The position numbers and the translations under genes were made by a program. DNA of 64,000 bases from a virus. This document shows positions 17,339-37,305 of the stretch, one piece after another. Numbering within the stretch: the first letter of the stretch is position 1; the number at the start of each line of letters is the position of its first letter. The notes under the pieces were generated by a model, which did no database searches, was not told the origin of the DNA, and was given only the letters and a program-made list of their open reading frames with translations. The stretch is taken from IMG/VR virus record IMGVR_UViG_3300027741_000020; one strand, written 5' to 3'.

Positions 17339-18196
17339 ATGGACATTTCATTAGCATTGAATCGCTTTAAAAGCCTTCAAAACACATCAAAGAAGTCTGA
17401 CTTAATTTGGAAGCCAGCAAACGGAAAATCACTTATTCGTATTGTTCCGTATAAGTTCAACAAAGACCTTCCTTTCATTGAACTTTATTTTCATTACAAC
17501 ATTAACAACAAAACTTATCTAAGTCCCGTTTCATTTGGTAGACCTGACCCAATCGTTGAGTTTGCAGAAAAACTTAAACGTACAGGCGATACCGATGATT
17601 GGAAAGCAGGTAAGAAAATGGAGCCGAAACTTCGTACATTTGTACCCGTAATTGTACGTGGTAAAGAAAACGAAGGAGTAAAGTTTTGGGGTTTTGGTAA
17701 GACTGTTTATCAGGACATATTAGGTTACATAGCGGATCCTGATTATGGGGATATTACTGACCCAAACAACGGTAGAGATATTGTGTTGGAAGTAACATCG
17801 GCTGAAGAATCGAACGCATCTTATCCTACGACCACAATCCGTGTTAAACCGGCAACTTCTAAGATACATTCCGATCCGGAAACTGTAAATGAGTTGATGA
17901 ACAATCAAAGAGAGATTACTGAATTATATTCAGAATTATCTTACGCAGAGTTAAAAACTATTCTTGAAAATTGGTTAAATCCATCGGCAGCAGCTGGTGA
18001 AGATGAAATCGTTGATGAATTAGAAGCACCAAAACCTGCAGCTAAAACCACTACAAATGTGGCACCTTTGAAATCTACTTTAGCAAAAGAGATTGAAGCA
18101 GGGCAGCTTTCAGATTTACCTTGGGAAAAGGAAGCAGCAAAACCAAAAGCAAAAGATGATGTAGCATCTGCTTTTGATGATTTATTCAATTCATAA
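17339..18196 (+). CDS. Single-stranded DNA-binding protein (T4 gp32-like)
   Basis: WKPANGKSLIRIVPY and GVKFWGFGKTVY motifs; acidic tail AFDDLFNS. Confidence 0.85.
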   Translation: MDISLALNRFKSLQNTSKKSDLIWKPANGKSLIRIVPYKFNKDLPFIELYFHYNINNKTYLSPVSFGRPDPIVEFAEKLKRTGDTDDWKAGKKMEPKLRTFVPVIVRGKENEGVKFWGFGKTVYQDILGYIADPDYGDITDPNNGRDIVLEVTSAEESNASYPTTTIRVKPATSKIHSDPETVNELMNNQREITELYSELSYAELKTILENWLNPSAAAGEDEIVDELEAPKPAAKTTTNVAPLKSTLAKEIEAGQLSDLPWEKEAAKPKAKDDVASAFDDLFNS

Positions 18197-26742: not shown

Positions 26743-26943
26743 ATGAAATTAGTAGGAGAATCGCATCCAATGCATAAACTGACTGAAGTACAGGTTACGC
26801 AAATAAGGGATTTATGGAAAATTGGACATAGAAACATAAAAGTTCTTGCCAGAAATAATGGCGTATCTCAAACTAATATAAAAAAAATAGTTACAAACAA
26901 AACCTGGACGCACATGTTAAAGTGGCCGTATGAAAGAGTTTAA
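26743..26943 (+). CDS. Small helix-turn-helix protein
   Basis: KLTEVQVTQIR..LARNNGVSQTNIKKIV..KTW resembles the DNA-binding tail of HNH endonucleases. Confidence 0.7.
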   Translation: MKLVGESHPMHKLTEVQVTQIRDLWKIGHRNIKVLARNNGVSQTNIKKIVTNKTWTHMLKWPYERV

Positions 26944-27694
26944 TAAGTTATATTGTGATATTTCAAAGTTATCTATAAGACCTGTAAATAAATCCATAGC
27001 AAAAGACATAATAGTTAATAATCACTACAGTGGTATTTGGACTAAAGTATCTTATGCGTTGGGTTTGTTCTACACATCAGATGACTCACACCAATTCTTT
27101 AGCGGTGTTAATGAAAAGCTAATAGGGGTTGCCTGTTATGGTGACCCAGTCGGCAGACACTCCGGCGCATCAATTTCCGAAGTATTAGATAGGACAGAAG
27201 TATTAGAATTAACTCGTCTATTCGTATTTGACGGGTATGGTTCTAATATTGAAAGTTGGTTTGTAGGACAAACTTTCGATTGGTTACGTCAAAACGCATC
27301 CAATATCAAAGCACTTGTTTCATATTCCGACCCGAAAGCAGGTCACGTTGGAACTATTTACCAAGCAACAAATTGGATATATCAGGGTAATCGTATTAGG
27401 CCAAATGATAGTTGGAGCTTCAAATGGACTGAAGATGATGAATGGCATCATAGCCGGACATCATATGTTAAGTTCGGAACGAATGACCCGAAGATTATAC
27501 AAACAATGACATCGACTCCCTTTTGGATTAAAAAAGAACCACGTAAGCATAGGTATGTTTACATTCTTGCAGATAAGCGTGATAAGAAAAGAATATTGAA
27601 AGAATTAAAATATCCCTCGTTACCTTATCCAAAAACAAATGTGGAGTTTATTGAAGAAATACATAAATTAGAACCAATTGAAAGAGTTAAATAA
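26930..27694 (+). CDS. mom: Mom-family (GNAT-fold) DNA modification enzyme, paralog 1
   Basis: IIVNNHYS, LIGVACYG, LELTRL, LVSYSD..GHVGTIYQATNWIYQG, WHHSR, KHRY and PYPK parallel phage Mu Mom. Confidence 0.85.
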   Translation: MKEFNKLYCDISKLSIRPVNKSIAKDIIVNNHYSGIWTKVSYALGLFYTSDDSHQFFSGVNEKLIGVACYGDPVGRHSGASISEVLDRTEVLELTRLFVFDGYGSNIESWFVGQTFDWLRQNASNIKALVSYSDPKAGHVGTIYQATNWIYQGNRIRPNDSWSFKWTEDDEWHHSRTSYVKFGTNDPKIIQTMTSTPFWIKKEPRKHRYVYILADKRDKKRILKELKYPSLPYPKTNVEFIEEIHKLEPIERVK

Positions 27695-28481
27695 AATATA
27701 TTGCGATACATCAAGAGTATCAGTTAGAGAAATTGGCAAATCAGCTGCAAAAGAAATAATTGTAAAGAAACACTATACGCATGCGTGGACTGCGTGTAGA
27801 TACGCATTGGGCATATTCTATAAGACTGATGAAGTAACCGTATTAGGCGATAGTGATAAACTCATAGGAGTATTAGTATATGGATTTCCGGTTGGAGCTA
27901 GAGCAGCACTTTCAATATCGGAAACTCTTACAAAAGATAATGTATTGGAATTGACAAGACTTTATTGCGATGATGGATATGGCTCTAACATTGAAAGTTA
28001 TGCTATCGGACAATCGTTCAAATGGTTTAGAGAAAACGATAAAGCAATTAAGGTACTAATATCATATGCGGATAATGGGCAAGACCATTTAGGAGGAATA
28101 TACCAGGCAACAAATTGGATTTATCAGGGACCATCCACATCAATAGCACTGATGCCAAATTACGGAATATCACTTACGGAAAATCCATATAACTGGATTC
28201 ATAGTAGAACTGTTTATAGTATGTGGGGCTCTTCAAATTTAGAACATCTAAAAAGAGAAATTGGAAAAAATGGTTATCCAAAATTTTGGAGAAGAATGGA
28301 ATCCGGAAAACACAGATATATACAAGTCGTAGTAGCAGATAAAAAAGAAAAAAAAGCACTAATTAAAAGTTTAAAGCATAAAACTATACCATACCCAAAA
28401 TCCGCTGAATTGTATAATAAAGAAATAGAATGCCATATCACTATACCTCCTGAAAATAATATACAAAAATCTTTTTGGTAA
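27678..28481 (+). CDS. mom: Mom-family (GNAT-fold) DNA modification enzyme, paralog 2
   Basis: IIVKKHYT, LIGVLVYG, LELTRL, LISYAD..HLGGIYQATNWIYQG, WIHSR, KHRY and PYPK; TTG start overlapping paralog 1. Confidence 0.85.
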   Translation: MKELNKIYCDTSRVSVREIGKSAAKEIIVKKHYTHAWTACRYALGIFYKTDEVTVLGDSDKLIGVLVYGFPVGARAALSISETLTKDNVLELTRLYCDDGYGSNIESYAIGQSFKWFRENDKAIKVLISYADNGQDHLGGIYQATNWIYQGPSTSIALMPNYGISLTENPYNWIHSRTVYSMWGSSNLEHLKREIGKNGYPKFWRRMESGKHRYIQVVVADKKEKKALIKSLKHKTIPYPKSAELYNKEIECHITIPPENNIQKSFW

Positions 28482-28505
28482 TCTCAGGTATTTTTCGTAT
28501 ATTAC
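28474..28505 (+). promoter_or_regulatory. Bacteroidota-type sigma promoter (TTTG ... TATATTAC)
   Basis: Elements start at 28474 and 28498; ATG at 28509. Confidence 0.55.
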
Positions 28506-28508
28506 ATT

Positions 28509-29735
28509 ATGAAATTTTGGGAAACAGGCGAAACAGCCACAGCAGAAGTATTTGACTACAAAGCAATGAAAGAGAAGTTTATAGCAAATTTGGACTATCT
28601 TAAAACTATGTCAGTTGAAGAGCAAACACTATATAAAAAATGGATGGAATGGAACGAAGACCTACCAACTAATATGAAGCGTTTGCCAGTATTACAATCA
28701 CATTTTGATTCATTATGGCTACCAACCGATATTATGGATAAGGAATTGACTATCGCACAAATTCAAGCGCTAGACCCTTATGTTGAAATTGTTGAAGATA
28801 ATCCAAAGGAAGCAACTCGTTGGACGGATATTAGAAAGTTAATTCATACAATGGAGTTTCAGGCTAATCCAGGTCGTAATGTAAAATGCTATGTAAAGGA
28901 TAGGACTAGTGGTAAAATACTTGGACAGATTTGTTTAGGTAGTGATATTACTTCACTTGGTGTTCGTGATGGATATATTGGTTGGGGCAAGGAAGATAAG
29001 TTTAAGAATGGTAAGTTGAATAATACAACAATCGCAACTACAATCGTATCAACACAGCCATTTGGATATAACTTTTTGGGTGGTAAGTTAATCGCAGCGC
29101 TAGCAACATCGCCGGAGGTTAGAGATTATTGGAAGAAAAAATATGATAATGTGCTAATAGGTGTTGGTACAACTTCTCTTTACGGAATCCACTCACAATA
29201 TAATGGTATTCCACACTTTAAAACATTGGGTGAAAGTAAAGGCAAAATCAGTACAAAGCCAGATGATAAGGTGTATGACCCGTGGCACCAATGGTTAAAA
29301 GAAAATCGTGCAGATTGGTATAAAACACATATCCTATTAGAACGTGAAAGAAACGGAGCAAATATGGGTTATGAAAAAAACGGACCTGTAAGTGGTATTA
29401 AACAAAAGATTATTCAGGCTATATTCAAAGAGCTTGGAATTAAAGGAAACGCTTATGACCACGGATTTCAACGTGGTGTTTACTTCGCACAAATGTATGA
29501 TAATGGCAATGAGTTCCTATGTTCAAAGATAGATGAATCTCAATTAGTTCTTAAACAAAAGTTTGCAGAAGGAAACGCTTACACTGTAAAATGGTGGAAG
29601 GATAAAGCAATCAAACGCTATGAGAAAATGCATAGTGAAGGTAAAATCAAACCAGAAGCACTATTTTATGTAGATGCAATCGGAATGACTTGGGAAGGAA
29701 TGAAATCACATTATTTAAAAGAAGTAGGAAGATAA
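28509..29735 (+). CDS. DruA / DUF4338-like protein
   Basis: IVSTQPFGYNFLGGKLIAALATS, TTSLYG..SQYNG and LGESKG match my recollection of DruA/DUF4338 motifs. Confidence 0.7.
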   Translation: MKFWETGETATAEVFDYKAMKEKFIANLDYLKTMSVEEQTLYKKWMEWNEDLPTNMKRLPVLQSHFDSLWLPTDIMDKELTIAQIQALDPYVEIVEDNPKEATRWTDIRKLIHTMEFQANPGRNVKCYVKDRTSGKILGQICLGSDITSLGVRDGYIGWGKEDKFKNGKLNNTTIATTIVSTQPFGYNFLGGKLIAALATSPEVRDYWKKKYDNVLIGVGTTSLYGIHSQYNGIPHFKTLGESKGKISTKPDDKVYDPWHQWLKENRADWYKTHILLERERNGANMGYEKNGPVSGIKQKIIQAIFKELGIKGNAYDHGFQRGVYFAQMYDNGNEFLCSKIDESQLVLKQKFAEGNAYTVKWWKDKAIKRYEKMHSEGKIKPEALFYVDAIGMTWEGMKSHYLKEVGR

Positions 29736-29736
29736 T

Positions 29737-30843
29737 ATGAAATTTTGGGAAACAGAAGTTGATATAAACGCAAGAAAAGTTTTGGTTATACCAAATATTA
29801 CAAATTCACAAAATATAGAAAAGGACTCGTTTGTAGATGTTATATATAATCATATTTTAGGACTCAAAGAGTATGGTTCTTACTATTGGCACATACTATT
29901 ACCACAGCCAGTTAAAAAGCTAAATTTAGACAACGTAAAGCAACATATAATACCATTTTCAGGCGATATGATTAAAATGAGAACATATCCACCTGATATG
30001 AATAGATTGCTTGAAACATTGGATTATGATTCAATATACTCACATCTTCCAGACTGGCCTCAAGTTGGTAGATATAAAAATTCATTTGATACAAAAATAA
30101 TTGGATATTGCCATTGGTGGGAAATGAAAACCTGTAACGCTGAAGACCGTAAGAATAAATGGCGTTGGATGCCTATTGAATTACTTGGTGTATCACAAAT
30201 GGAAACTTGCTTTCTAAATACACAAGAACAAAAAGATAGGGTTTTGGCCGAAGCTAAAATGTGGTTCAATGATGAATTTGTTTCTAATTTAGATAATATA
30301 TTGACTGTTTGGAATTTGGGAATTGAAAAATCAAAAATTATAAAAGCTCCAACTAAAAAAGAAAAGATTATAGTTTTCAACCATAGAGCAGCCGCTTATA
30401 AAGGTTATCCGAAATTTATAGAATTAATGAAGGAATATAGAGAACGTAGGCAGGATTTCAAAGTATGGGTGCCACAATTAGATGGAAAGCCTGAAGTAAG
30501 TTGGATTGATAATACAAAAGTGGCAAAGCACGATTATTATAAAAAATTACAAAGTTGTACGGTTGGAATACAAATGAGGCAAACAAATTATGGGTGGAGT
30601 GTAGCAGCTACGGATTGTATGATGAATGGAACGCCGATGATATTTCAGGAATCAGAATGTTACAAAGAGATTGACCCTAATGGTTTATTTTTTAAATTCA
30701 AAAAAGACCTTTTTGAAATGTTAGATAAATTGTTGGATGATGGGGAATACATAACCAACCAATCGGTTAGAAGTATAGATAGAGCAAACGACTTGGCCTT
30801 AAATGATAAAAAAATGTTTGAGGTATTAAGTAAAAAATTGTAA
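29737..30843 (+). CDS. GT-B glycosyltransferase, candidate DNA-modifying
   Basis: IVFNHR..YKGY and GWSVAATDCMMNGTPMI donor-binding region; sits immediately before PolB. Confidence 0.75.
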   Translation: MKFWETEVDINARKVLVIPNITNSQNIEKDSFVDVIYNHILGLKEYGSYYWHILLPQPVKKLNLDNVKQHIIPFSGDMIKMRTYPPDMNRLLETLDYDSIYSHLPDWPQVGRYKNSFDTKIIGYCHWWEMKTCNAEDRKNKWRWMPIELLGVSQMETCFLNTQEQKDRVLAEAKMWFNDEFVSNLDNILTVWNLGIEKSKIIKAPTKKEKIIVFNHRAAAYKGYPKFIELMKEYRERRQDFKVWVPQLDGKPEVSWIDNTKVAKHDYYKKLQSCTVGIQMRQTNYGWSVAATDCMMNGTPMIFQESECYKEIDPNGLFFKFKKDLFEMLDKLLDDGEYITNQSVRSIDRANDLALNDKKMFEVLSKKL

Positions 30844-30851
30844 ATAACGAT

Positions 30852-33407
30852 ATGGCATATAAAAATATATATTACGAAAGAAATAAAAACCTTATGCATA
30901 TATGGGATGATGCAACCGGGTACACTACAATACCATACCGAAAATATGCGTATAAAAAAGACCCAAATGGACAGCATCGTTCAATGTATGGCGATAAATT
31001 GACTCGTATTGGTAAGTGGGAAAAAGATGATGCAGAAGACCTGTTTGAATCGGATGTACCAGAAACAACAAGAGTATTAGTGGATATGTACGATTCCGAT
31101 TTACCGTCAACAGGACATACTGTATTAACCTTTGATATTGAGGTTGAAATGATTACAGGATTACCAAATACTAGAGAAGCTAAAAACGAAATAACAGCAA
31201 TCGCTGCACAAGATAATATCAGTAGAGTGTACGATGTGTTTGTTTTAGATAAAAGCAAAAAAATTAAAAACAATGCTAAAAACTTTGATAAGGATGGTAG
31301 GAAAGTTAATGTTCACGTTTTCGATAACGAGAAAAATCTCCTACTTGCATTTCTTGATTATTACGAAGAAATTAACCCAACTATTTTAACCGGATGGAAT
31401 ATTGACTTCTTTGATATTCCATATCTTTACAATCGTATAAAAAATGTATGTAGTGAGGGACACGCTAAACGGCTTTCACCAATCGGACAATGTTTCTATT
31501 CACCATACCGTGAGAAGTGGAGTTTTGGTGGTGTGAGCATTTTGGACTACATTAACCTATATAAAACTTACACTTATACATTGGAAAGTAGCTACACACT
31601 TAACTATATTGCTACAAAGGAATTAGGGCGTGGTAAGGTTGAATACGAAGGTAATTTGGATGACCTCTTTGAAAATGATTTGGAAAAATTCATTGAGTAT
31701 AACATTGTGGATGTGGAGCTTGTAGCAGCGATGGATGATAAGTTACAATTCATTGAGTTATGTAGAGCAGTTTGTCACGCAGGGTTTGTACCATATGAAG
31801 ATTATATATTTTCTTCAAAGTGGTTGGAAGGAGCATGCTTGGGGTATCTTAAAAAGAAAGGATTAGTAGCAACAAATAAACCAAAAGACCGTAAGGAACG
31901 AATGCAGGCTCTACGTGATAACAATGAAGAGAAATTCATTGGAGCATATGTAAAGGAGCCTATTGTGGGCAAGTATGATTGGATTTATGATTTGGATTTG
32001 ACTTCTCTATATCCATCAATCATTATGACTTTGAATATTTCACCGGAAACAAAAGTAGGTAAGATTACAAATTGGAATCCAGAAGAATGGATAAAGGGAG
32101 AAGATAGGAACTATACGGTAGCAAATGAAACCGAACAATATGAATACTCTCGTCAGGAACTTGCTGATGTAATTAAAGATAGTAATTTGGGAGTAGCAGC
32201 AAATGGAGTTCTATATAATCAGGATAAACCCGGTCTAATTGCCGATATTCTTAATGATTGGTTTGATAAACGTGTTGAGTTTAGAAAACTTGAGAAAAAA
32301 TATGGTGAAGCCGGTGACACCGAAAAATATGAATTTTATGCAAAAAGACAATTGGTTCAAAAAATTCTTCTTAATTCTATGTATGGTGTTCTTGGTCTTC
32401 CTGCCTTTCGGTTTTATGATATTGATAATGCTGAAGCCGTTACGATTACAGGTCAAACGGTTATTAAAAAAACCGCCGAAATGGCTAACATAAAGTATTG
32501 GAAAGAACTTGGAACAAAAGATGATTACAATGTGTACATTGATACGGATTCAATTTATATGATGGCCGAACCATTGGTTAAACATAGGTTTCCTGATTAT
32601 AAAACATTTGACCAAGACCGAATGGCAACCGAAGTTAATACAATCGCCGAAGAAACTCAATCATTCTTAAATAAGTTTTACGATATATTGGCCGAAAGGT
32701 TTTTCTTTATACCGAAGGATAAGCATCGTTTTGAGATTAAAAAGGAGTATATAAGTAAAGCAGGATTTTGGGTGGCAAAAAAACGATATGCACAATGGAT
32801 GATTTTGAAAAACGGAATCAAATGTGATAAGCTTGATGTGAAAGGACTCGATGTAGTTCGTAGTTCGTTTCCAAAAGCATTTCAAACATTTATGGCAGGC
32901 ATACTAAAAGATATTCTAATGGGTAAATCGCATGAAGAAATCGATGAGAGCTTAATTCAGTTCAAAAAAAATATGCCAAACTTACCTGTAAATAAAATAG
33001 CAAAAGCTGGAGCAATTAAGGAATTAAGTAAGTATGATGATGGTAGTTGGAAGGTTGGACAAGCGGTTGGTGTATTTGAGAAAGGAACGCCTGCGCACGT
33101 TAAAGCCGGTATAGCATACAATCGTTTATTAAAATTCTTTAATTGTGCATATAAGCACGAACCAATTAGAGATGGTGATAAAGTAAAATGGGTATATCTT
33201 AAAAACAATCCATTAGGACTTGAAACTATGGCATTTAAAGATTATAATGACCCAACTGAAATATTGGAGTTCGTTGAAAACTATGTGGATAGGGGCGCAA
33301 TGTTTAAAGCAGAGCTAGAAAACAAAATTGATGACTTCTATACGGCATTAAAATGGGAAAAAGCAACAAATGAAGCAAAAACAGCTAAAAAATTCTTTGC
33401 ATTTTAA
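30852..33407 (+). CDS. Family B DNA polymerase (T4 gp43-like)
   Basis: Exonuclease motifs FDIE, GWNIDFFDIPY and YNIVDV; polymerase motifs DLTSLYPS, KILLNSMYG, YIDTDS and KKRYA. Confidence 0.97.
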   Translation: MAYKNIYYERNKNLMHIWDDATGYTTIPYRKYAYKKDPNGQHRSMYGDKLTRIGKWEKDDAEDLFESDVPETTRVLVDMYDSDLPSTGHTVLTFDIEVEMITGLPNTREAKNEITAIAAQDNISRVYDVFVLDKSKKIKNNAKNFDKDGRKVNVHVFDNEKNLLLAFLDYYEEINPTILTGWNIDFFDIPYLYNRIKNVCSEGHAKRLSPIGQCFYSPYREKWSFGGVSILDYINLYKTYTYTLESSYTLNYIATKELGRGKVEYEGNLDDLFENDLEKFIEYNIVDVELVAAMDDKLQFIELCRAVCHAGFVPYEDYIFSSKWLEGACLGYLKKKGLVATNKPKDRKERMQALRDNNEEKFIGAYVKEPIVGKYDWIYDLDLTSLYPSIIMTLNISPETKVGKITNWNPEEWIKGEDRNYTVANETEQYEYSRQELADVIKDSNLGVAANGVLYNQDKPGLIADILNDWFDKRVEFRKLEKKYGEAGDTEKYEFYAKRQLVQKILLNSMYGVLGLPAFRFYDIDNAEAVTITGQTVIKKTAEMANIKYWKELGTKDDYNVYIDTDSIYMMAEPLVKHRFPDYKTFDQDRMATEVNTIAEETQSFLNKFYDILAERFFFIPKDKHRFEIKKEYISKAGFWVAKKRYAQWMILKNGIKCDKLDVKGLDVVRSSFPKAFQTFMAGILKDILMGKSHEEIDESLIQFKKNMPNLPVNKIAKAGAIKELSKYDDGSWKVGQAVGVFEKGTPAHVKAGIAYNRLLKFFNCAYKHEPIRDGDKVKWVYLKNNPLGLETMAFKDYNDPTEILEFVENYVDRGAMFKAELENKIDDFYTALKWEKATNEAKTAKKFFAF

Positions 33408-33455: not shown

Positions 33456-34169
33456 ATGAACAAACAAAATCTATTAAGATTTATTCAAAAGTATTCATTG
33501 GGAGGACTCATTGAATCGGTAGCGTGGAACGCTGAAGGTAACAAATTATCAGTAAGATTTATTTCTGATGATAAAACTCTATTAGGTGAAGTTGAGTTTA
33601 ATGCATTCACATCTAATACAATGAATGTTGGTATCTATACTACATCATTATTGAAAAATATGATTGGTATTTTGGATAGTGATATTACATTGAAAGTTGA
33701 TAAGGCTGGTGAGAAATCGGTATCTTTGAAATTATCATCAGATGAAACTGAAACATCATATCAATTGGCAGACTTAGGAGTTATTCCTCCAGTTCCGGAT
33801 TTAAAAGCAATGCCTGAATTTGGTATTAGTATTGAAATGGCTTCTACAATGATTGATAAATTCATTAAAGCAAAAGGAGCATTGAGTGATATTGATACAT
33901 TTACTGTATTTACCGAAGGTGGTGATTTGAAAATGGCAATCGGTTATTCTTCAATATCAACAAATAGAGTAACATTTAGTTGCCAGAAAGGATTTGAAGG
34001 CGATGTAAAACCAATTAGTTTTTCGGCAAAGTATTTAAAAGAAATCCTAACAGCAAACAAAGAAGCAACATCGGCAAAATTAAAAGTATCAACCGATGGT
34101 TTATCGCACGTTGAGTTTCAAATTGATGACTTCGTTTGTAAATATTATCTGGTTGAAATATCTAACTAA
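33456..34169 (+). CDS. Sliding clamp (T4 gp45 / PCNA-like)
   Basis: 237 aa after PolB; C-terminal FSAKYLKEIL...LKVS..GL..VEF...KYYLV pattern. Confidence 0.8.
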   Translation: MNKQNLLRFIQKYSLGGLIESVAWNAEGNKLSVRFISDDKTLLGEVEFNAFTSNTMNVGIYTTSLLKNMIGILDSDITLKVDKAGEKSVSLKLSSDETETSYQLADLGVIPPVPDLKAMPEFGISIEMASTMIDKFIKAKGALSDIDTFTVFTEGGDLKMAIGYSSISTNRVTFSCQKGFEGDVKPISFSAKYLKEILTANKEATSAKLKVSTDGLSHVEFQIDDFVCKYYLVEISN

Positions 34170-34182
34170 TAAAATATAAAAA

Positions 34183-34485
34183 ATGGCAGAACAATTAAGT
34201 TTATTTAACGAAGAGCAATTAAATAATTTGGAATATATTAAAGACGCGGAATGGTGTTTTCAATTTTTTGATAATGAACCTGTTGTTATTGGGTTTTCAC
34301 CAGATGAATCTTCCAGTGGTAATTTGGTTTTAGAATTAAAACCAACAACGCAAGAAATATTGACCTTTAAGCAAAATGGAATGCAATTTAGAATTTTTCC
34401 TAGAGAAATTAGTGAAGAAAGTAAACTATTAAGAAAACAACAAAAAGAAGAAAATGCAAGTGAAAATAAAGAAGCTGCACAATAA
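34183..34485 (+). CDS. Hypothetical protein with N-terminal QLSLF motif
   Basis: 100 aa, begins MAEQLSLF; directly downstream of the clamp gene. Confidence 0.55.
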   Translation: MAEQLSLFNEEQLNNLEYIKDAEWCFQFFDNEPVVIGFSPDESSSGNLVLELKPTTQEILTFKQNGMQFRIFPREISEESKLLRKQQKEENASENKEAAQ

Positions 34486-34940: not shown

Positions 34941-35573
34941 ATGATAATATACAAGGTAACTAATAAAGTAAATGGTAAAATTTATATAGGCAAAACAAAG
35001 CAACCATTATCAAAAAGAAAAGCAGCGCATTATGAAAGAGTAAAGTATAATTCTGTAACTAACTTTCATAATGCTCTACGATTCTATCCAAAAGATAATT
35101 TTATATGGGAAATTGAAATAAAATGCAAGGATGATATTGAATTAAATCAGTATGAAATGTATTTTATTAAAAAATATAACACATATAAAGACGGGTATAA
35201 TATGACAGAAGGAGGCGATGGTGGGTTTACATATAAGGTTGGTGATGAAATTTACAATAGAGTAAAAGATAAATTAGGCAAGTGGAAAAATGGAAATCCA
35301 GGAGCAACAAAAAACGCTATTGAAAAAAGATTAAAAACTTTTGAAACTGTAAAATGGAAAGCAGGGGAGTTGCATGGAAATTATGGCCATTCTCATAACA
35401 AAGGAATTTTAATTGGTATTAAAAACCCAATGGCTAAACCTATATTAATTGATGGGATTGAATATGAAACAATTTCAAAAGCAAGTATAACATTATCAAT
35501 ACCGGAATCAACTATCCGATATAGATGTAAATCAAAAAGATATAACAATTATAAATATAAAAACGAAATATGA
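34941..35573 (+). mobile_element. Free-standing GIY-YIG homing endonuclease (Seg-like)
   Basis: IIYKVTNKVNGKIYIGKT..RKAAH, E..FI and YNMTEGGDGG, with a C-terminal HTH-like ETISKAS..IPESTIRYRC; both flanking genes are intact. Confidence 0.88.
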
Positions 35574-36517
35574 GTTTTTTCGCAAATGAAAATAACAAAA
35601 AAGAGCATAGTTTATGGGTGGAACGCTACCGTCCTATGACTCTTTCCGAATATGTAGGAAATGAGATTGTAAAGGAAACGATACAACAATATTTGGACAC
35701 AAATGATATTCCACATCTTTTATTTTATGGTAAAGCCGGTACAGGCAAAACCACATTAGCAAAGTTGATAGTGAATACAATCAAATGTGACCATATGATA
35801 ATCAACGCATCCGATGAAAACAATGTAGATACGGTAAGAACGAAAGTAAAAAACTTCGCATCTTCGGTTGGTTTCGCAGGTTTCAAAGTGATTATCCTTG
35901 ATGAGTTTGATTATATGACTCCAAACGCACAGGCAATCCTTCGTAACTTAATGGAAACATTCAGTAAGCATTGCCGTTTCATTCTGACTTGTAACTACAT
36001 TGAGAAGATTATTGACCCTATACAAAGTCGTTGTCAATCATTCGCTATAACTCCACCAACTAAAAAGGATGTAGCAGTTCAGGTTACAAAGATACTTGAA
36101 GCTGAGAAGATTAAGTTTGACATTAAGAATGTAGCAGATATTATTAATTCATATTACCCAGATATTCGTAGGATATTAAACACTTGCCAACTACAATCGG
36201 CAAAGGGTGAGTTGAAAGTAGACCATAAAATAATGGTTGAATCGGACTTCAAATCAAAGTTAGTAGAACTCTTGAAATCCGGCGATGATAAGAGAAATCT
36301 ATTTCTTAAAATCAGACAATCAGTAGCAGATAATCGGCTTAATGATTATTCAGAAATGTATACAATGTTATATGAGAAGGTCGATGAATATGCGGCTGGT
36401 AATGTGGCAAACACAATACTTACTATTGCAGATGGTATTTCAAAAGATGCATTGGTAGTAGATAAAGAAATCGTATTTTGTTCAACTATAATCCAGATTT
36501 TGAATATCATAAAATAA
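35570..36517 (+). CDS. Clamp loader AAA+ subunit (gp44 / RFC-like)
   Basis: WVERYRP, GKAGTGKTT, INASD, IILDEFD and SRC motifs. Confidence 0.95.
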   Translation: MSFFANENNKKEHSLWVERYRPMTLSEYVGNEIVKETIQQYLDTNDIPHLLFYGKAGTGKTTLAKLIVNTIKCDHMIINASDENNVDTVRTKVKNFASSVGFAGFKVIILDEFDYMTPNAQAILRNLMETFSKHCRFILTCNYIEKIIDPIQSRCQSFAITPPTKKDVAVQVTKILEAEKIKFDIKNVADIINSYYPDIRRILNTCQLQSAKGELKVDHKIMVESDFKSKLVELLKSGDDKRNLFLKIRQSVADNRLNDYSEMYTMLYEKVDEYAAGNVANTILTIADGISKDALVVDKEIVFCSTIIQILNIIK

Positions 36518-36852: not shown

Positions 36853-37305
36853 ATGGCAGCCAAAAAGTTATTTGACCACTTAAACGCTATTACATCGGAG
36901 CAAAACCCCGACTATTTTAAAACATTGACCGAAGAGGATGTTAAAAGTTGGAGTAACTTTATGATTAATCGTTTTCTTTCAATGAAGCCGGAGTGGGTAG
37001 AATTGATTGCCACATTACTACCACTATCACAAACTCTTGAACCCGAAGAAATGTATAAGTTATACATAAATGTTCTTCCGAAAGGTAAGCAGTATTTAAA
37101 ATATACAAAGGGAAAAGCAGAAGATAAATATGAAAAATTTTTATTAGATTTAATAGTAAAACATTATCAATGCTCCGAAAGACAGGCAACCGATTATATA
37201 GAAGTATTGTATGCTACCAGAGAAGGTAGAGAAAATATAAAATATATATGTGAATTGTATGGCACTGATAAGAAAGAAATAGGTAAATTAAAATTGAAAA
37301 TATAG
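36853..37305 (+). CDS. Clamp loader A subunit (T4 gp62-like)
   Basis: FMINRFLSM, LPKGKQYLKY and HYQCSERQA..Y parallel gp62; near the gp44-like gene. Confidence 0.75.
   Translation: MAAKKLFDHLNAITSEQNPDYFKTLTEEDVKSWSNFMINRFLSMKPEWVELIATLLPLSQTLEPEEMYKLYINVLPKGKQYLKYTKGKAEDKYEKFLLDLIVKHYQCSERQATDYIEVLYATREGRENIKYICELYGTDKKEIGKLKLKI

What the first reader, a model, noticed from the sequence alone, without database searches (positions are those of the whole stretch)
28460..33407. Shared aromatic terminal peptides (KSFW, MKFWET x2, KKFFAF) may be a clamp-docking code
Seen: the DruA-like protein and the GT both start MKFWET, with an identical 19 nt ATGAAATTTTGGGAAACAG at 28509 and 29737, although the proteins are otherwise unrelated. 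Mom paralog 2 ends QKSFW, PolB ends KKFFAF and the clamp loader starts MSFF. Known: T4/RB69 polymerases bind gp45 through a hydrophobic C-terminal peptide. Inferred: the modifying enzymes ride the same clamp. Caveat: the FW and FFAF ends overlap promoter -33 TTTG elements.
Basis: partly seen in the sequence, partly recalled or inferred. Interest (0 to 1): 0.8.

Follow-up and report, generated by a model that had tools for sequence, protein, structure and literature searches.

The report
Shared Phe-Trp tails on modification enzymes
In this large phage, three otherwise unrelated DNA-modifying enzymes each carry the same tiny Phe-Trp-acid tag at a free end, conserved as protein in over a hundred relatives; it is most likely a docking peptide for the phage's sliding clamp, but no binding has been measured.

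Summary
An exact 20-nt repeat (28508-28527 and 29736-29755) encodes MKFWET at the start of a DruA-like protein and of a glycosyltransferase that are otherwise unrelated. Mom paralog 2 ends KSFW, PolB ends KKFFAF and the clamp loader starts MSFF.

The motif is conserved as protein, not as DNA. In about 150 IMG/VR relatives, every DruA-like and GT homolog starts M-x(0-2)-[FY]-W-[DE/N], with a free spacer residue. Every Mom2 homolog ends [FY]W and every PolB ends FFxF. In a complete 198-kb relative the N-terminal motif marks only these two genes.

The DruA-like tail (residues 1-11) is predicted disordered. In a more distant clade the DruA-like and GT tails change together (FW to FF or IFDF) and PolB ends in FF. 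In one phage the DruA-like start (GSFFDI) nearly copies the PolB end (SKFFDF), and its gene sits next to the clamp gene.

The 237-aa neighbour has a PCNA/gp45 fold. Complex prediction of three clamp copies with DruA-like residues 1-40 gave only weak support (0.54, best control 0.01).

Verdict: this is a genuine short terminal motif. Clamp docking is the best but unproven reading (about 0.5). It is a new variant of the known clamp-binding peptides. The scan's other notes on this stretch are unchecked first-reader notes.

The parts
26930..27694 (+). Mom paralog 1; its C-terminus (…EPIERVK) has no aromatic motif
   Evidence: Pfam PF25680, E 8e-44. Homolog C-termini lack FW.
27678..28481 (+). Mom paralog 2 (TTG start overlapping the end of Mom1)
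   Evidence: Pfam PF25680, E 7.5e-44.
28467..28478 (+). C-terminal KSFW of Mom2; FW is 28473-28478 and the stop is 28479-28481
   Evidence: All unique Mom2 homolog tails, down to 50% identity, end in [FY]W; TTT, TTC and TAT codons are used and the downstream DNA varies.
28509..29735 (+). DruA-like (PF14236) protein with a Mom/GNAT-like core
   Evidence: Pfam, E 7e-18. Model pLDDT 80.6; the best PDB fold match is Mu Mom 8bv8.
28509..28526 (+). N-terminal MKFWET of the DruA-like protein (20-nt repeat copy 1: 28508-28527)
   Evidence: F3 and W4 are invariant in 30 aligned homologs. 45 of 45 unique 5' ends carry FW. Residues 1-11 are predicted disordered, pLDDT below 50.
29737..30843 (+). GT-B-type glycosyltransferase, the presumed DNA glycosyltransferase
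   Evidence: Weak Pfam Glycos_transf_1 and Glyco_transf_4 hits, below the Pfam cut-offs. It lies inside the Mom/DruA operon.
29737..29754 (+). N-terminal MKFWET of the GT (20-nt repeat copy 2: 29736-29755)
   Evidence: F3 and W4 are invariant in 31 sequences, including a paralog at 30% identity. 49 of 49 unique 5' ends carry [FY]W.
30852..33407 (+). Family B DNA polymerase
   Evidence: Pfam DNA_pol_B and exo1 domains.
33387..33404 (+). C-terminal KKFFAF of PolB
   Evidence: All 36 unique homolog tails, down to 46% identity, keep FFxF at or next to the end, with varied codons.
33456..34169 (+). Sliding clamp (PCNA/gp45 fold)
   Evidence: AlphaFold model pLDDT 93.3. Foldseek probability 1.0 to PCNA and to T4 gp45 3u61_F, TM 0.74/0.78.
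35570..36517 (+). Clamp loader large subunit (gp44/RFC-like); its N-terminal MSFF is 35570-35581
   Evidence: phrog_168, E 2e-81. M[SAG]FF[AED] is conserved in many relatives but absent in one clade.
36853..37305 (+). Clamp loader small subunit (gp62-like)
   Evidence: phrog_225, E 1.3e-18.

Best explanation
The free ends of Mom2 (C-terminus, x-[FY]-W-COOH), the DruA-like protein and the glycosyltransferase (N-termini, M-x-[FY]-W-[D/E]) each carry a short linear motif. It is an aromatic pair followed by a negative charge, either an Asp/Glu side chain or the terminal carboxylate, and it sits on a flexible tail. The motif is selected at protein level and most likely docks all three enzymes onto one shared partner. 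The best candidate is the phage's trimeric PCNA/gp45-type sliding clamp, whose established clients in this genome (PolB, ...FFxF-COOH; clamp loader, M-x-FF-) carry the same kind of terminal aromatic peptide. On this reading the enzymes use clamp pockets not occupied by the polymerase and modify DNA right behind the fork. What is shown: the motif, its protein-level conservation, its specificity, its predicted disorder and its concerted change between clades. What is inferred: the partner is the clamp, and the modification is co-replicative.
For: 1) Conservation. In IMG/VR relatives, 45 of 45 unique DruA-like 5' ends and 49 of 49 unique GT 5' ends carry [FY]W after 0-2 free residues (spacers K, S, Q, N, D, E, T, A, I, V). 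The next residue is D or E in about 95%. F3 and W4 are invariant columns while positions 5-14 vary. A second GT paralog at 30% identity starts MNKFW[DE]. All Mom2 homolog tails end [FY]W and all PolB tails keep FFxF.
2) Specificity. ATG-NNN-TTY-TGG-GA occurs 1-3 times per complete 180-266 kb relative, almost always at these two gene starts. Among 218 ORFs of a complete 198.5-kb relative, the N-terminal motif marks only the GT, the DruA-like protein and one probably spurious 82-aa ORF. A C-terminal aromatic pair marks PolB, Mom2, an endonuclease and two small ORFs. The other glycosyltransferases in the window lack the motif.
3) Tail character. DruA-like residues 1-11 have pLDDT below 50 and no secondary structure.
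4) Concerted change. In a clade with DruA-like proteins at 52-57% identity, the DruA-like start becomes xxFF[DG][DE], the GT start becomes MNIFDF or MNDFFQD, and PolB ends SM[ED][RK]FF. In L158 the gene order is PolB (…SKFFDFNGG), a clamp homolog (44% identity), then the DruA-like gene (MAKGIGSFFDIDE). Distant Mom-like proteins end NFWE and NPFFG. Ten of 74 distant unfused DruA-like representatives have an aromatic pair plus acid in the first 13 residues, against 2.6% of background windows (P = 2e-5).
5) Partner. The neighbour is a PCNA/gp45-fold clamp.
6) Complex prediction (three clamp copies plus DruA-like residues 1-40): weak support, score 0.54, best of three controls 0.01. The mark was reached by 58 of 80 solved complexes and 2 of 110 mismatched pairs. 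At 0.60 or under it was reached by only 7 of the 80 solved complexes and by both mismatches that passed. The runs share at least 50% of their contacts and the partner pLDDT is at least 49. Many PCNA-peptide complexes are solved, so the pass may reflect likeness to those.
Against: No binding was measured, and the complex prediction is only weak. The enzymes use F-W whereas the two sure clamp clients use F-F, which could point to a different site or partner. The clamp loader's MxFF start is absent in the L071/L073/L145/L147/L157 clade, which keeps FW on the enzymes. Some GT paralogs start directly at the first strand (MRVLVIPNYT) with no tail. Mom C-termini in the FF clade are less regular (…ESFN, …KFI). 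The canonical PIP or beta-clamp consensus is not met. In T4, the reported alpha-glucosyltransferase-gp45 interaction was not reproduced in a 2025 preprint. The Phe codon in the N-terminal motif is TTT in 92 of 93 unique ends against 85% for internal F-W pairs, so a small DNA- or RNA-level preference cannot be excluded.
Confidence: 0.5

Rival explanations
1. The FW tails are docking peptides, but for a shared partner other than the clamp. Candidates are Mom1 (which has no tail) or one another, forming a multi-enzyme modification complex, or PolB, the gp32-like SSB or the helicase.
For: The conservation, the disorder and the concerted change between clades require only a common partner, not the clamp specifically. 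The enzymes use FW whereas PolB and the loader use FF. Mom1 is always adjacent and lacks the motif.
Against: It does not explain why the tails resemble the PolB tail, nearly copying it in L158. It also does not explain the weak but control-clean clamp prediction. No alternative partner was identified.
Confidence: 0.25
2. The terminal aromatic pair works within each enzyme, for example as a DNA-intercalating or base-flipping wedge, an active-site lid, or a stability or degradation signal, with no shared partner.
For: All carriers act on DNA (Mom-like, DruA/GNAT-like, GT). A DNA methylase (L134, …ETDYW) and an endonuclease (G001, …EDWF) also end in an aromatic pair.
Against: Three unrelated folds would have to evolve the same terminal dipeptide plus acid, at either end, on a disordered tail. 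The concerted FW-to-FF switch on the DruA-like protein and the GT between clades is hard to explain without a common receptor.
Confidence: 0.15
3. The conservation lies in the nucleic acid: the -33 TTTG promoter element, a translation-initiation element, or recent recombination or gene conversion between the two 5' ends.
For: There is an exact 20-nt identity in this phage. TTT is used in 92 of 93 N-terminal motifs. Six of 30 unique Mom2 tails have TTTG followed at the right distance by TAnnTTTG. In the window the PolB tail codons contain TTTG 19 nt before TATATTTA.
Against: In most relatives the two 5' ends differ in DNA but keep FW. The spacer length (0-2 codons) and the codons vary, and D, E and N alternate. 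F-to-Y (TAT) and TTC variants occur. 24 of 30 Mom2 tails have no such promoter. PolB tail codons vary freely, and in most relatives the TTTG lies after the stop codon. Internal F-W pairs are already 85% TTT. The octamer is not a dispersed genomic motif.
Confidence: 0.05

Closest known systems
C-terminal clamp-binding tail of T4/RB69 DNA polymerase gp43, and of T4 gp33 and gp55 (established knowledge, recalled; the RB69 clamp-peptide complex is from Shamoo and Steitz 1999)
   Same: A short hydrophobic or aromatic peptide at a free end of a client of a trimeric gp45-type clamp. PolB here ends …KKFFAF and its relatives end …FFxF or …FF.
   Different: Here the same kind of tail sits on DNA-modifying enzymes, at the N-terminus in two of them, and uses Phe-Trp plus an acidic group. 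No binding data exist.
Eukaryotic PIP-box clients with a terminal or N-terminal motif (DNA ligase I, UNG2) and DNMT1 riding PCNA (recalled from the literature)
   Same: DNA-processing or DNA-modifying enzymes are recruited to a PCNA-fold clamp by a short motif in a disordered end. An N-terminal placement has precedent.
   Different: The Qxx[LIM]xx[FY][FY] consensus is not met. The motif here is only about 3-4 residues ([FY]-W-acid) and lies directly at the terminus.
T4 alpha-glucosyltransferase-gp45 interaction (proposed in 2004, cited in bioRxiv 10.64898/2025.12.06.692756)
   Same: The idea that a phage DNA glycosyltransferase works at the fork by binding the sliding clamp.
   Different: No docking motif was defined for T4, and the 2025 preprint could not reproduce the interaction in vitro or in vivo. 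Here a conserved sequence motif offers a concrete handle.
E. coli Hda N-terminal beta-clamp-binding motif (QL[SP]LPL; recalled)
   Same: A clamp-binding peptide at the extreme N-terminus.
   Different: A different clamp type (dimeric beta) and a different consensus. A closer look-alike of that consensus in this window is the small protein at 34183-34485 (EQLSLF), not the FW enzymes.

Membership tests
Clamp-interacting terminal peptide (gp43-tail / PIP-like short linear motif) | A short aromatic or hydrophobic motif at a free terminus or in a disordered segment | tested here: met
   The motif lies in the first 3-6 or the last 2 residues. DruA-like residues 1-11 have pLDDT below 50. The GT and Mom2 tails were not modelled.
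Clamp-interacting terminal peptide (gp43-tail / PIP-like short linear motif) | The motif is conserved as protein while its flanks vary | tested here: met
   F3 and W4 are invariant and positions 2 and 5-14 vary. Mom2 tails vary except for the terminal [FY]W.
Clamp-interacting terminal peptide (gp43-tail / PIP-like short linear motif) | A cognate sliding clamp is encoded by the same genome | tested here: met
   The protein at 33456-34169 models at pLDDT 93 with a PCNA/T4 gp45 fold. Clamp loader subunits are present.
Clamp-interacting terminal peptide (gp43-tail / PIP-like short linear motif) | Physical binding to the clamp's hydrophobic pocket | tested here: inconclusive
   Prediction only: score 0.54 against a best control of 0.01, graded weak, with no interface reported. 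An experiment is needed.
Clamp-interacting terminal peptide (gp43-tail / PIP-like short linear motif) | Canonical consensus (PIP Qxx[LIM]xx[FY][FY], or beta-clamp QL[SD]LF) | tested here: not met
   The tails read M-x-F-W-[DE] or x-F-W-COOH, with no conserved Q or aliphatic position.
Mom family (PF25680) | A full-length match to the Mom profile above the curated cut-off | tested here: met
   Both paralogs score about 150 bits against a cut-off of 27.1.
Druantia DruA (PF14236) | A DruA domain match | tested here: met
   65.2 bits against a cut-off of 27, over residues 87-337.
Druantia DruA (PF14236) | Context of a Druantia defence operon (large DruE helicase and partner genes) | tested here: not met
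   The neighbours are Mom, Mom, GT, PolB and the clamp, here and in relatives. It is a phage replication/modification gene, not a Druantia system.
gp45/PCNA sliding clamp | A two-domain beta-alpha-beta clamp fold of about 230 residues | tested here: met
   Foldseek probability 1.0, TM 0.70-0.78 to PCNA and T4 gp45. Sequence searches alone fail.
gp45/PCNA sliding clamp | A ring-forming trimer that encircles DNA | not testable with these tools
   Inferred only, from the fold and the adjacent clamp loader genes.

The most novel reading that the evidence does not exclude
A terminal [FY]-W-acid 'tool-belt code' recruits a whole DNA-hypermodification pathway (Mom-like, DruA/GNAT-like and glycosyltransferase enzymes) to the phage sliding clamp, so that hypermodification is physically coupled to replication. 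The code co-evolves with the clamp and the polymerase tail across phage clades. It would be the first sequence-defined clamp-docking motif for phage DNA-modifying enzymes.
Probability: 0.4. Interest if true: 0.75.

Novelty: new variant of a known kind. Interest (0 to 1): 0.62.

Why it matters
Whether phage DNA-modifying enzymes are physically coupled to the replisome is unsettled. The T4 alpha-glucosyltransferase-gp45 claim was recently not reproduced. This phage group offers a defined, mutable three-residue handle, present on three or four unrelated enzymes and conserved in more than 100 genomes. That makes the question directly testable with peptides and a purified clamp. If the reading holds, terminal aromatic-acid tags could be used to predict which uncharacterised phage proteins work at the fork. 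They could also explain how nascent DNA is protected from host nucleases before it leaves the replisome. The work also links DruA (DUF4338), a Druantia component of unknown biochemistry, to a Mom/GNAT-like fold in a DNA-modification operon.

Tried and rejected
- No whole genome is held for this window. A complete 198.5-kb relative was fetched instead.
- No close GenBank phage was found; only short PolB matches came back.
- A profile search of the PDB with the clamp alignment found nothing. The fold had to be predicted.
- The genome-wide DNA pattern TWYTGGTAR was too unspecific to use. It was replaced by an ORF-level scan.
- Chance was rejected.
- A purely DNA-level signal was rejected as the main cause.
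- A general 5'-end AT-rich codon bias was rejected: TTT is 67% both in codons 2-8 and in gene bodies.
- The exact 20-nt identity as evidence of recent recombination is unnecessary, because the relatives' two 5' ends differ in DNA while keeping the peptide.
- A T4-style capsid-targeting sequence and an N-degron were considered. Both were set aside because Mom2 carries the motif at its C-terminus and residue 2 varies between classes that do and do not lose the initiator Met (inference).
- Literature searches for DUF4338 with Mom, and for clamp-binding motifs on phage modification enzymes, found no prior description.
- Only one complex job was available, so the PolB tail (positive control), the Mom2 tail and the GT tail were not tested against the clamp.


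Full report
**1. The observation**

The window is AT-rich (32% GC). It carries a T4-style replication module on the + strand:
- Mom paralog 1: 26930-27694.
- Mom paralog 2: 27678-28481.
- A DruA-domain protein: 28509-29735.
- A GT-B-type glycosyltransferase: 29737-30843.
- Family B DNA polymerase: 30852-33407.
- A 237-aa protein: 33456-34169.
- Clamp loader subunits: 35570-36517 and 36853-37305.

TATGAAATTTTGGGAAACAG occurs exactly twice, at 28508 and 29736. None of 100 shuffles gave two matches. Both copies lie on the first possible start codon and encode MKFWET. The two proteins share nothing else. Mom2 ends …QKSFW, PolB ends …KKFFAF and the clamp loader starts MSFF.

**2. Protein-level or DNA-level conservation?**

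GenBank phages hold no close relative. IMG/VR holds about 150 related loci, with 97% to about 56% protein identity.
- All 45 unique DruA-like 5' ends and all 49 unique GT 5' ends encode [FY]W.
- The motif follows 0, 1 or 2 free residues. Twelve different spacers occur, including K, S, Q, N, D, E, T, A, I and V.
- The next residue is D or E, rarely N or G.
- In the alignments F3 and W4 are invariant while positions 5-14 vary. The GT alignment includes a second paralog at only 30% identity, which starts MNKFW[DE].
- Every unique Mom2 tail ends [FY]W. TTT, TTC and TAT codons all occur, and the downstream sequences are unrelated. Mom1 never ends this way.
- All 36 unique PolB tails keep FFxF, with freely varying codons.

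Only 6 of 30 unique Mom2 tails have TTTG at the FW codons followed at promoter distance by TAnnTTTG. In most relatives the TTTG near the PolB end lies after the stop codon.

The Phe codon in the N-terminal motif is TTT in 92 of 93 unique ends. Genes here show no 5' TTT bias (67% in codons 2-8 and in gene bodies). Internal Phe-Trp pairs are already 85% TTT, so codon-pair bias accounts for most of the excess. The octamer TTTTGGGA is not a dispersed genomic motif.

The exact 20-nt identity in this phage is therefore a consequence of a constrained peptide plus AT-rich codon use. In most relatives the two 5' ends differ in DNA.

**3. Specificity**

ATG-NNN-TTY-TGG-GA occurs only 1-3 times in each of five complete relatives of 180-266 kb, almost always at these two gene starts.

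I fetched one complete 198.5-kb relative and called 218 ORFs.
- The N-terminal aromatic-pair-plus-acid motif marks only the GT, the DruA-like protein and one probably spurious 82-aa ORF.
- A C-terminal aromatic pair marks PolB, Mom2, a 134-aa endonuclease (…EDWF) and two small ORFs.

The window also holds several other glycosyltransferases and a roughly 22-kb amino-sugar biosynthesis cluster. None of these carries the tag.

**4. Nature of the tail**

The DruA-like model has mean pLDDT 80.6. Residues 1-11 are the lowest-confidence segment (pLDDT below 50, no secondary structure), and the fold starts at about residue 17. Invariant residues inside a disordered end are the signature of a short linear interaction motif.

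The motif can be written as an aromatic pair followed by a negative charge. The charge is Asp or Glu at the N-termini and the free carboxylate at the Mom2 C-terminus. This unification is my inference.

**5. Change across clades**

Representatives of the wider DruA-like family (1038 hits) do not all carry the motif. Ten of 74 unfused full-length representatives have an aromatic pair plus acid within the first 13 residues, for example SFFD, KFFD, QFFD, DFFD, NWFE and NFFE. Only 2.6% of background windows do (P = 2e-5). One representative (P0251) instead ends …QRFW.

Genomic context for distant members:
- L158 has the order PolB (…SKFFDFNGG), a clamp homolog (44% identity), then the DruA-like gene (MAKGIGSFFDIDE). 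The enzyme's start nearly copies the polymerase's end.
- Distant Mom-family proteins end …NFWE (L160) and …NPFFG (L164).
- In an IMG/VR clade at 52-57% DruA-like identity, the DruA-like start is xxFF[DG][DE], the GT start is MNIFDF or MNDFFQD, and PolB ends SM[ED][RK]FF.

The tails of two unrelated enzymes thus change together between clades (W to F), and the polymerase tail changes as well. This is what co-evolution with one receptor predicts.

**6. Is the receptor the clamp?**

The 237-aa neighbour has no useful sequence match. It folds with pLDDT 93 into a PCNA/gp45 clamp (Foldseek probability 1.0; T4 gp45 3u61_F TM 0.74/0.78).

Its two certain clients carry terminal aromatic peptides of the same style. 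PolB has FFxF-COOH. The clamp loader starts M[SAG]FF[AED] in many relatives, for example MAFFETEK beside a DruA-like MKFWDTEE in one clade.

The single complex prediction available used three clamp copies and DruA-like residues 1-40, both supplied as alignments.
- Scores were 0.57, 0.54 and 0.52; the controls scored 0.00, 0.01 and 0.00.
- The tool grades this as weak support. The mark was reached by 58 of 80 solved complexes and 2 of 110 mismatched pairs.
- At 0.60 or under it was reached by only 7 of the solved complexes and by both false passes.
- The runs share at least 50% of their contacts and the partner pLDDT is at least 49.
- No interface was reported.
- PCNA-peptide complexes are abundant among solved structures, so likeness may contribute to the score.

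Points against the clamp reading:
- The enzymes use F-W and the core clients use F-F.
- The loader's FF start is missing in a clade that keeps FW on the enzymes.
- Some GT paralogs have no tail.
- Mom tails in the FF clade are irregular.
- The T4 precedent, alpha-glucosyltransferase binding gp45, was not reproduced in a 2025 preprint.

**7. Mechanism proposed**

Shown: a protein-level, terminal, disordered, operon-specific motif that changes in concert on unrelated enzymes.

Inferred: each tail inserts its aromatic pair into the hydrophobic pocket of a clamp subunit not occupied by PolB, so the Mom-like, DruA/GNAT-like and glycosyltransferase steps act on DNA just behind the fork. Mom1, which has no tail, may be carried by pairing with Mom2; this is speculation.

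Confidence that this is a docking motif for a shared partner is about 0.8. Confidence that the partner is the clamp is about 0.5.

**8. Comparison with known systems**

It works like the gp43, gp33 and gp55 tails of T4 and RB69, and like PIP-box clients such as DNA ligase I, UNG2 and DNMT1. These comparisons are recalled knowledge. It does not meet the PIP or beta-clamp consensus, and binding is untested. I therefore file it as a new variant of the clamp-interacting-peptide kind, not as a PIP box. Two literature searches found no earlier description of such a tag on phage modification enzymes.

**9. Verdict**

The finding is worth a bench test because the handle is three residues long and the partner is a small, easily expressed protein. 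The scan's earlier notes on this stretch are unchecked first-reader notes that make the same suggestion.

Noticed in passing
window 34183-34485 (+): The 100-aa protein right after the clamp gene starts MAEQLSLF. An N-terminal EQLxLFP is conserved in most of about 34 distinct homologs. It matches the bacterial beta-clamp-binding consensus QL[SD]LF. It could be a binder of the host beta clamp or of the phage clamp. It has no Pfam or PHROG family.
   Followed up: partly
window 28509-29735 (+): The best PDB fold matches of the DruA-like model are phage Mu Mom (8bv8) and GNAT acetyltransferases (weak E of about 3e-3, probability 1.0, TM about 0.5 on the target). The operon may therefore hold three Mom/GNAT-like enzymes plus a GT. 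This hints at a biochemical role for the Druantia protein DruA.
   Followed up: partly
window 27678-27694: In this phage Mom2 starts with TTG and overlaps the last 17 nt of Mom1. In many relatives Mom2 starts with ATG a few bases after the Mom1 stop.
   Followed up: no
window about 38200-63300 (+): A long run of glycosyltransferases and deoxy/amino-sugar biosynthesis genes: two DegT aminotransferases, two epimerase/dehydratases, a sugar C-methyltransferase, a KAS III-like enzyme and GT2/GT1-like proteins. It may supply an unusual sugar donor for the DNA glycosyltransferase. None of these proteins carries the FW tag.
   Followed up: partly
L134:2422-3819 (+); G001 165228-165632 (-) = L205:13228-13632: Other DNA-acting proteins in relatives end in an aromatic pair: an N6/N4 DNA methylase (…ETDYW) and a phrog_945 endonuclease (…PEDWF). 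Small 84-121 aa proteins in L121, L136 and L140 end …K[NGK]YW, but their homologs in other loci do not. Conservation of the methylase and endonuclease tails was not assessed.
   Followed up: partly
proteins P0125, P0127, P0130, P0160, P0170, P0217, P0230: Many longer DruA-like homologs (550-740 aa) carry an N-terminal extension starting …PNPINDEIYS…. It looks like a ParB/sulfiredoxin-type domain (recalled pattern, not verified). This could be another way of bringing the enzyme to DNA.
   Followed up: no
window 34941-35573 (+): A 210-aa ORF lies between the dUTPase-like gene and the clamp loader. Its start (…IYKVTNKVNGKIYIGKT…) looks like a GIY-YIG homing endonuclease (recalled pattern, not checked). 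Its end overlaps the clamp loader's start codon.
   Followed up: no
window 17339-18196 (+): The gp32-like SSB (phrog_1192 and phrog_224) ends …AFDDLFNS. This is an acidic-aromatic tail typical of SSB partner-binding ends.
   Followed up: no
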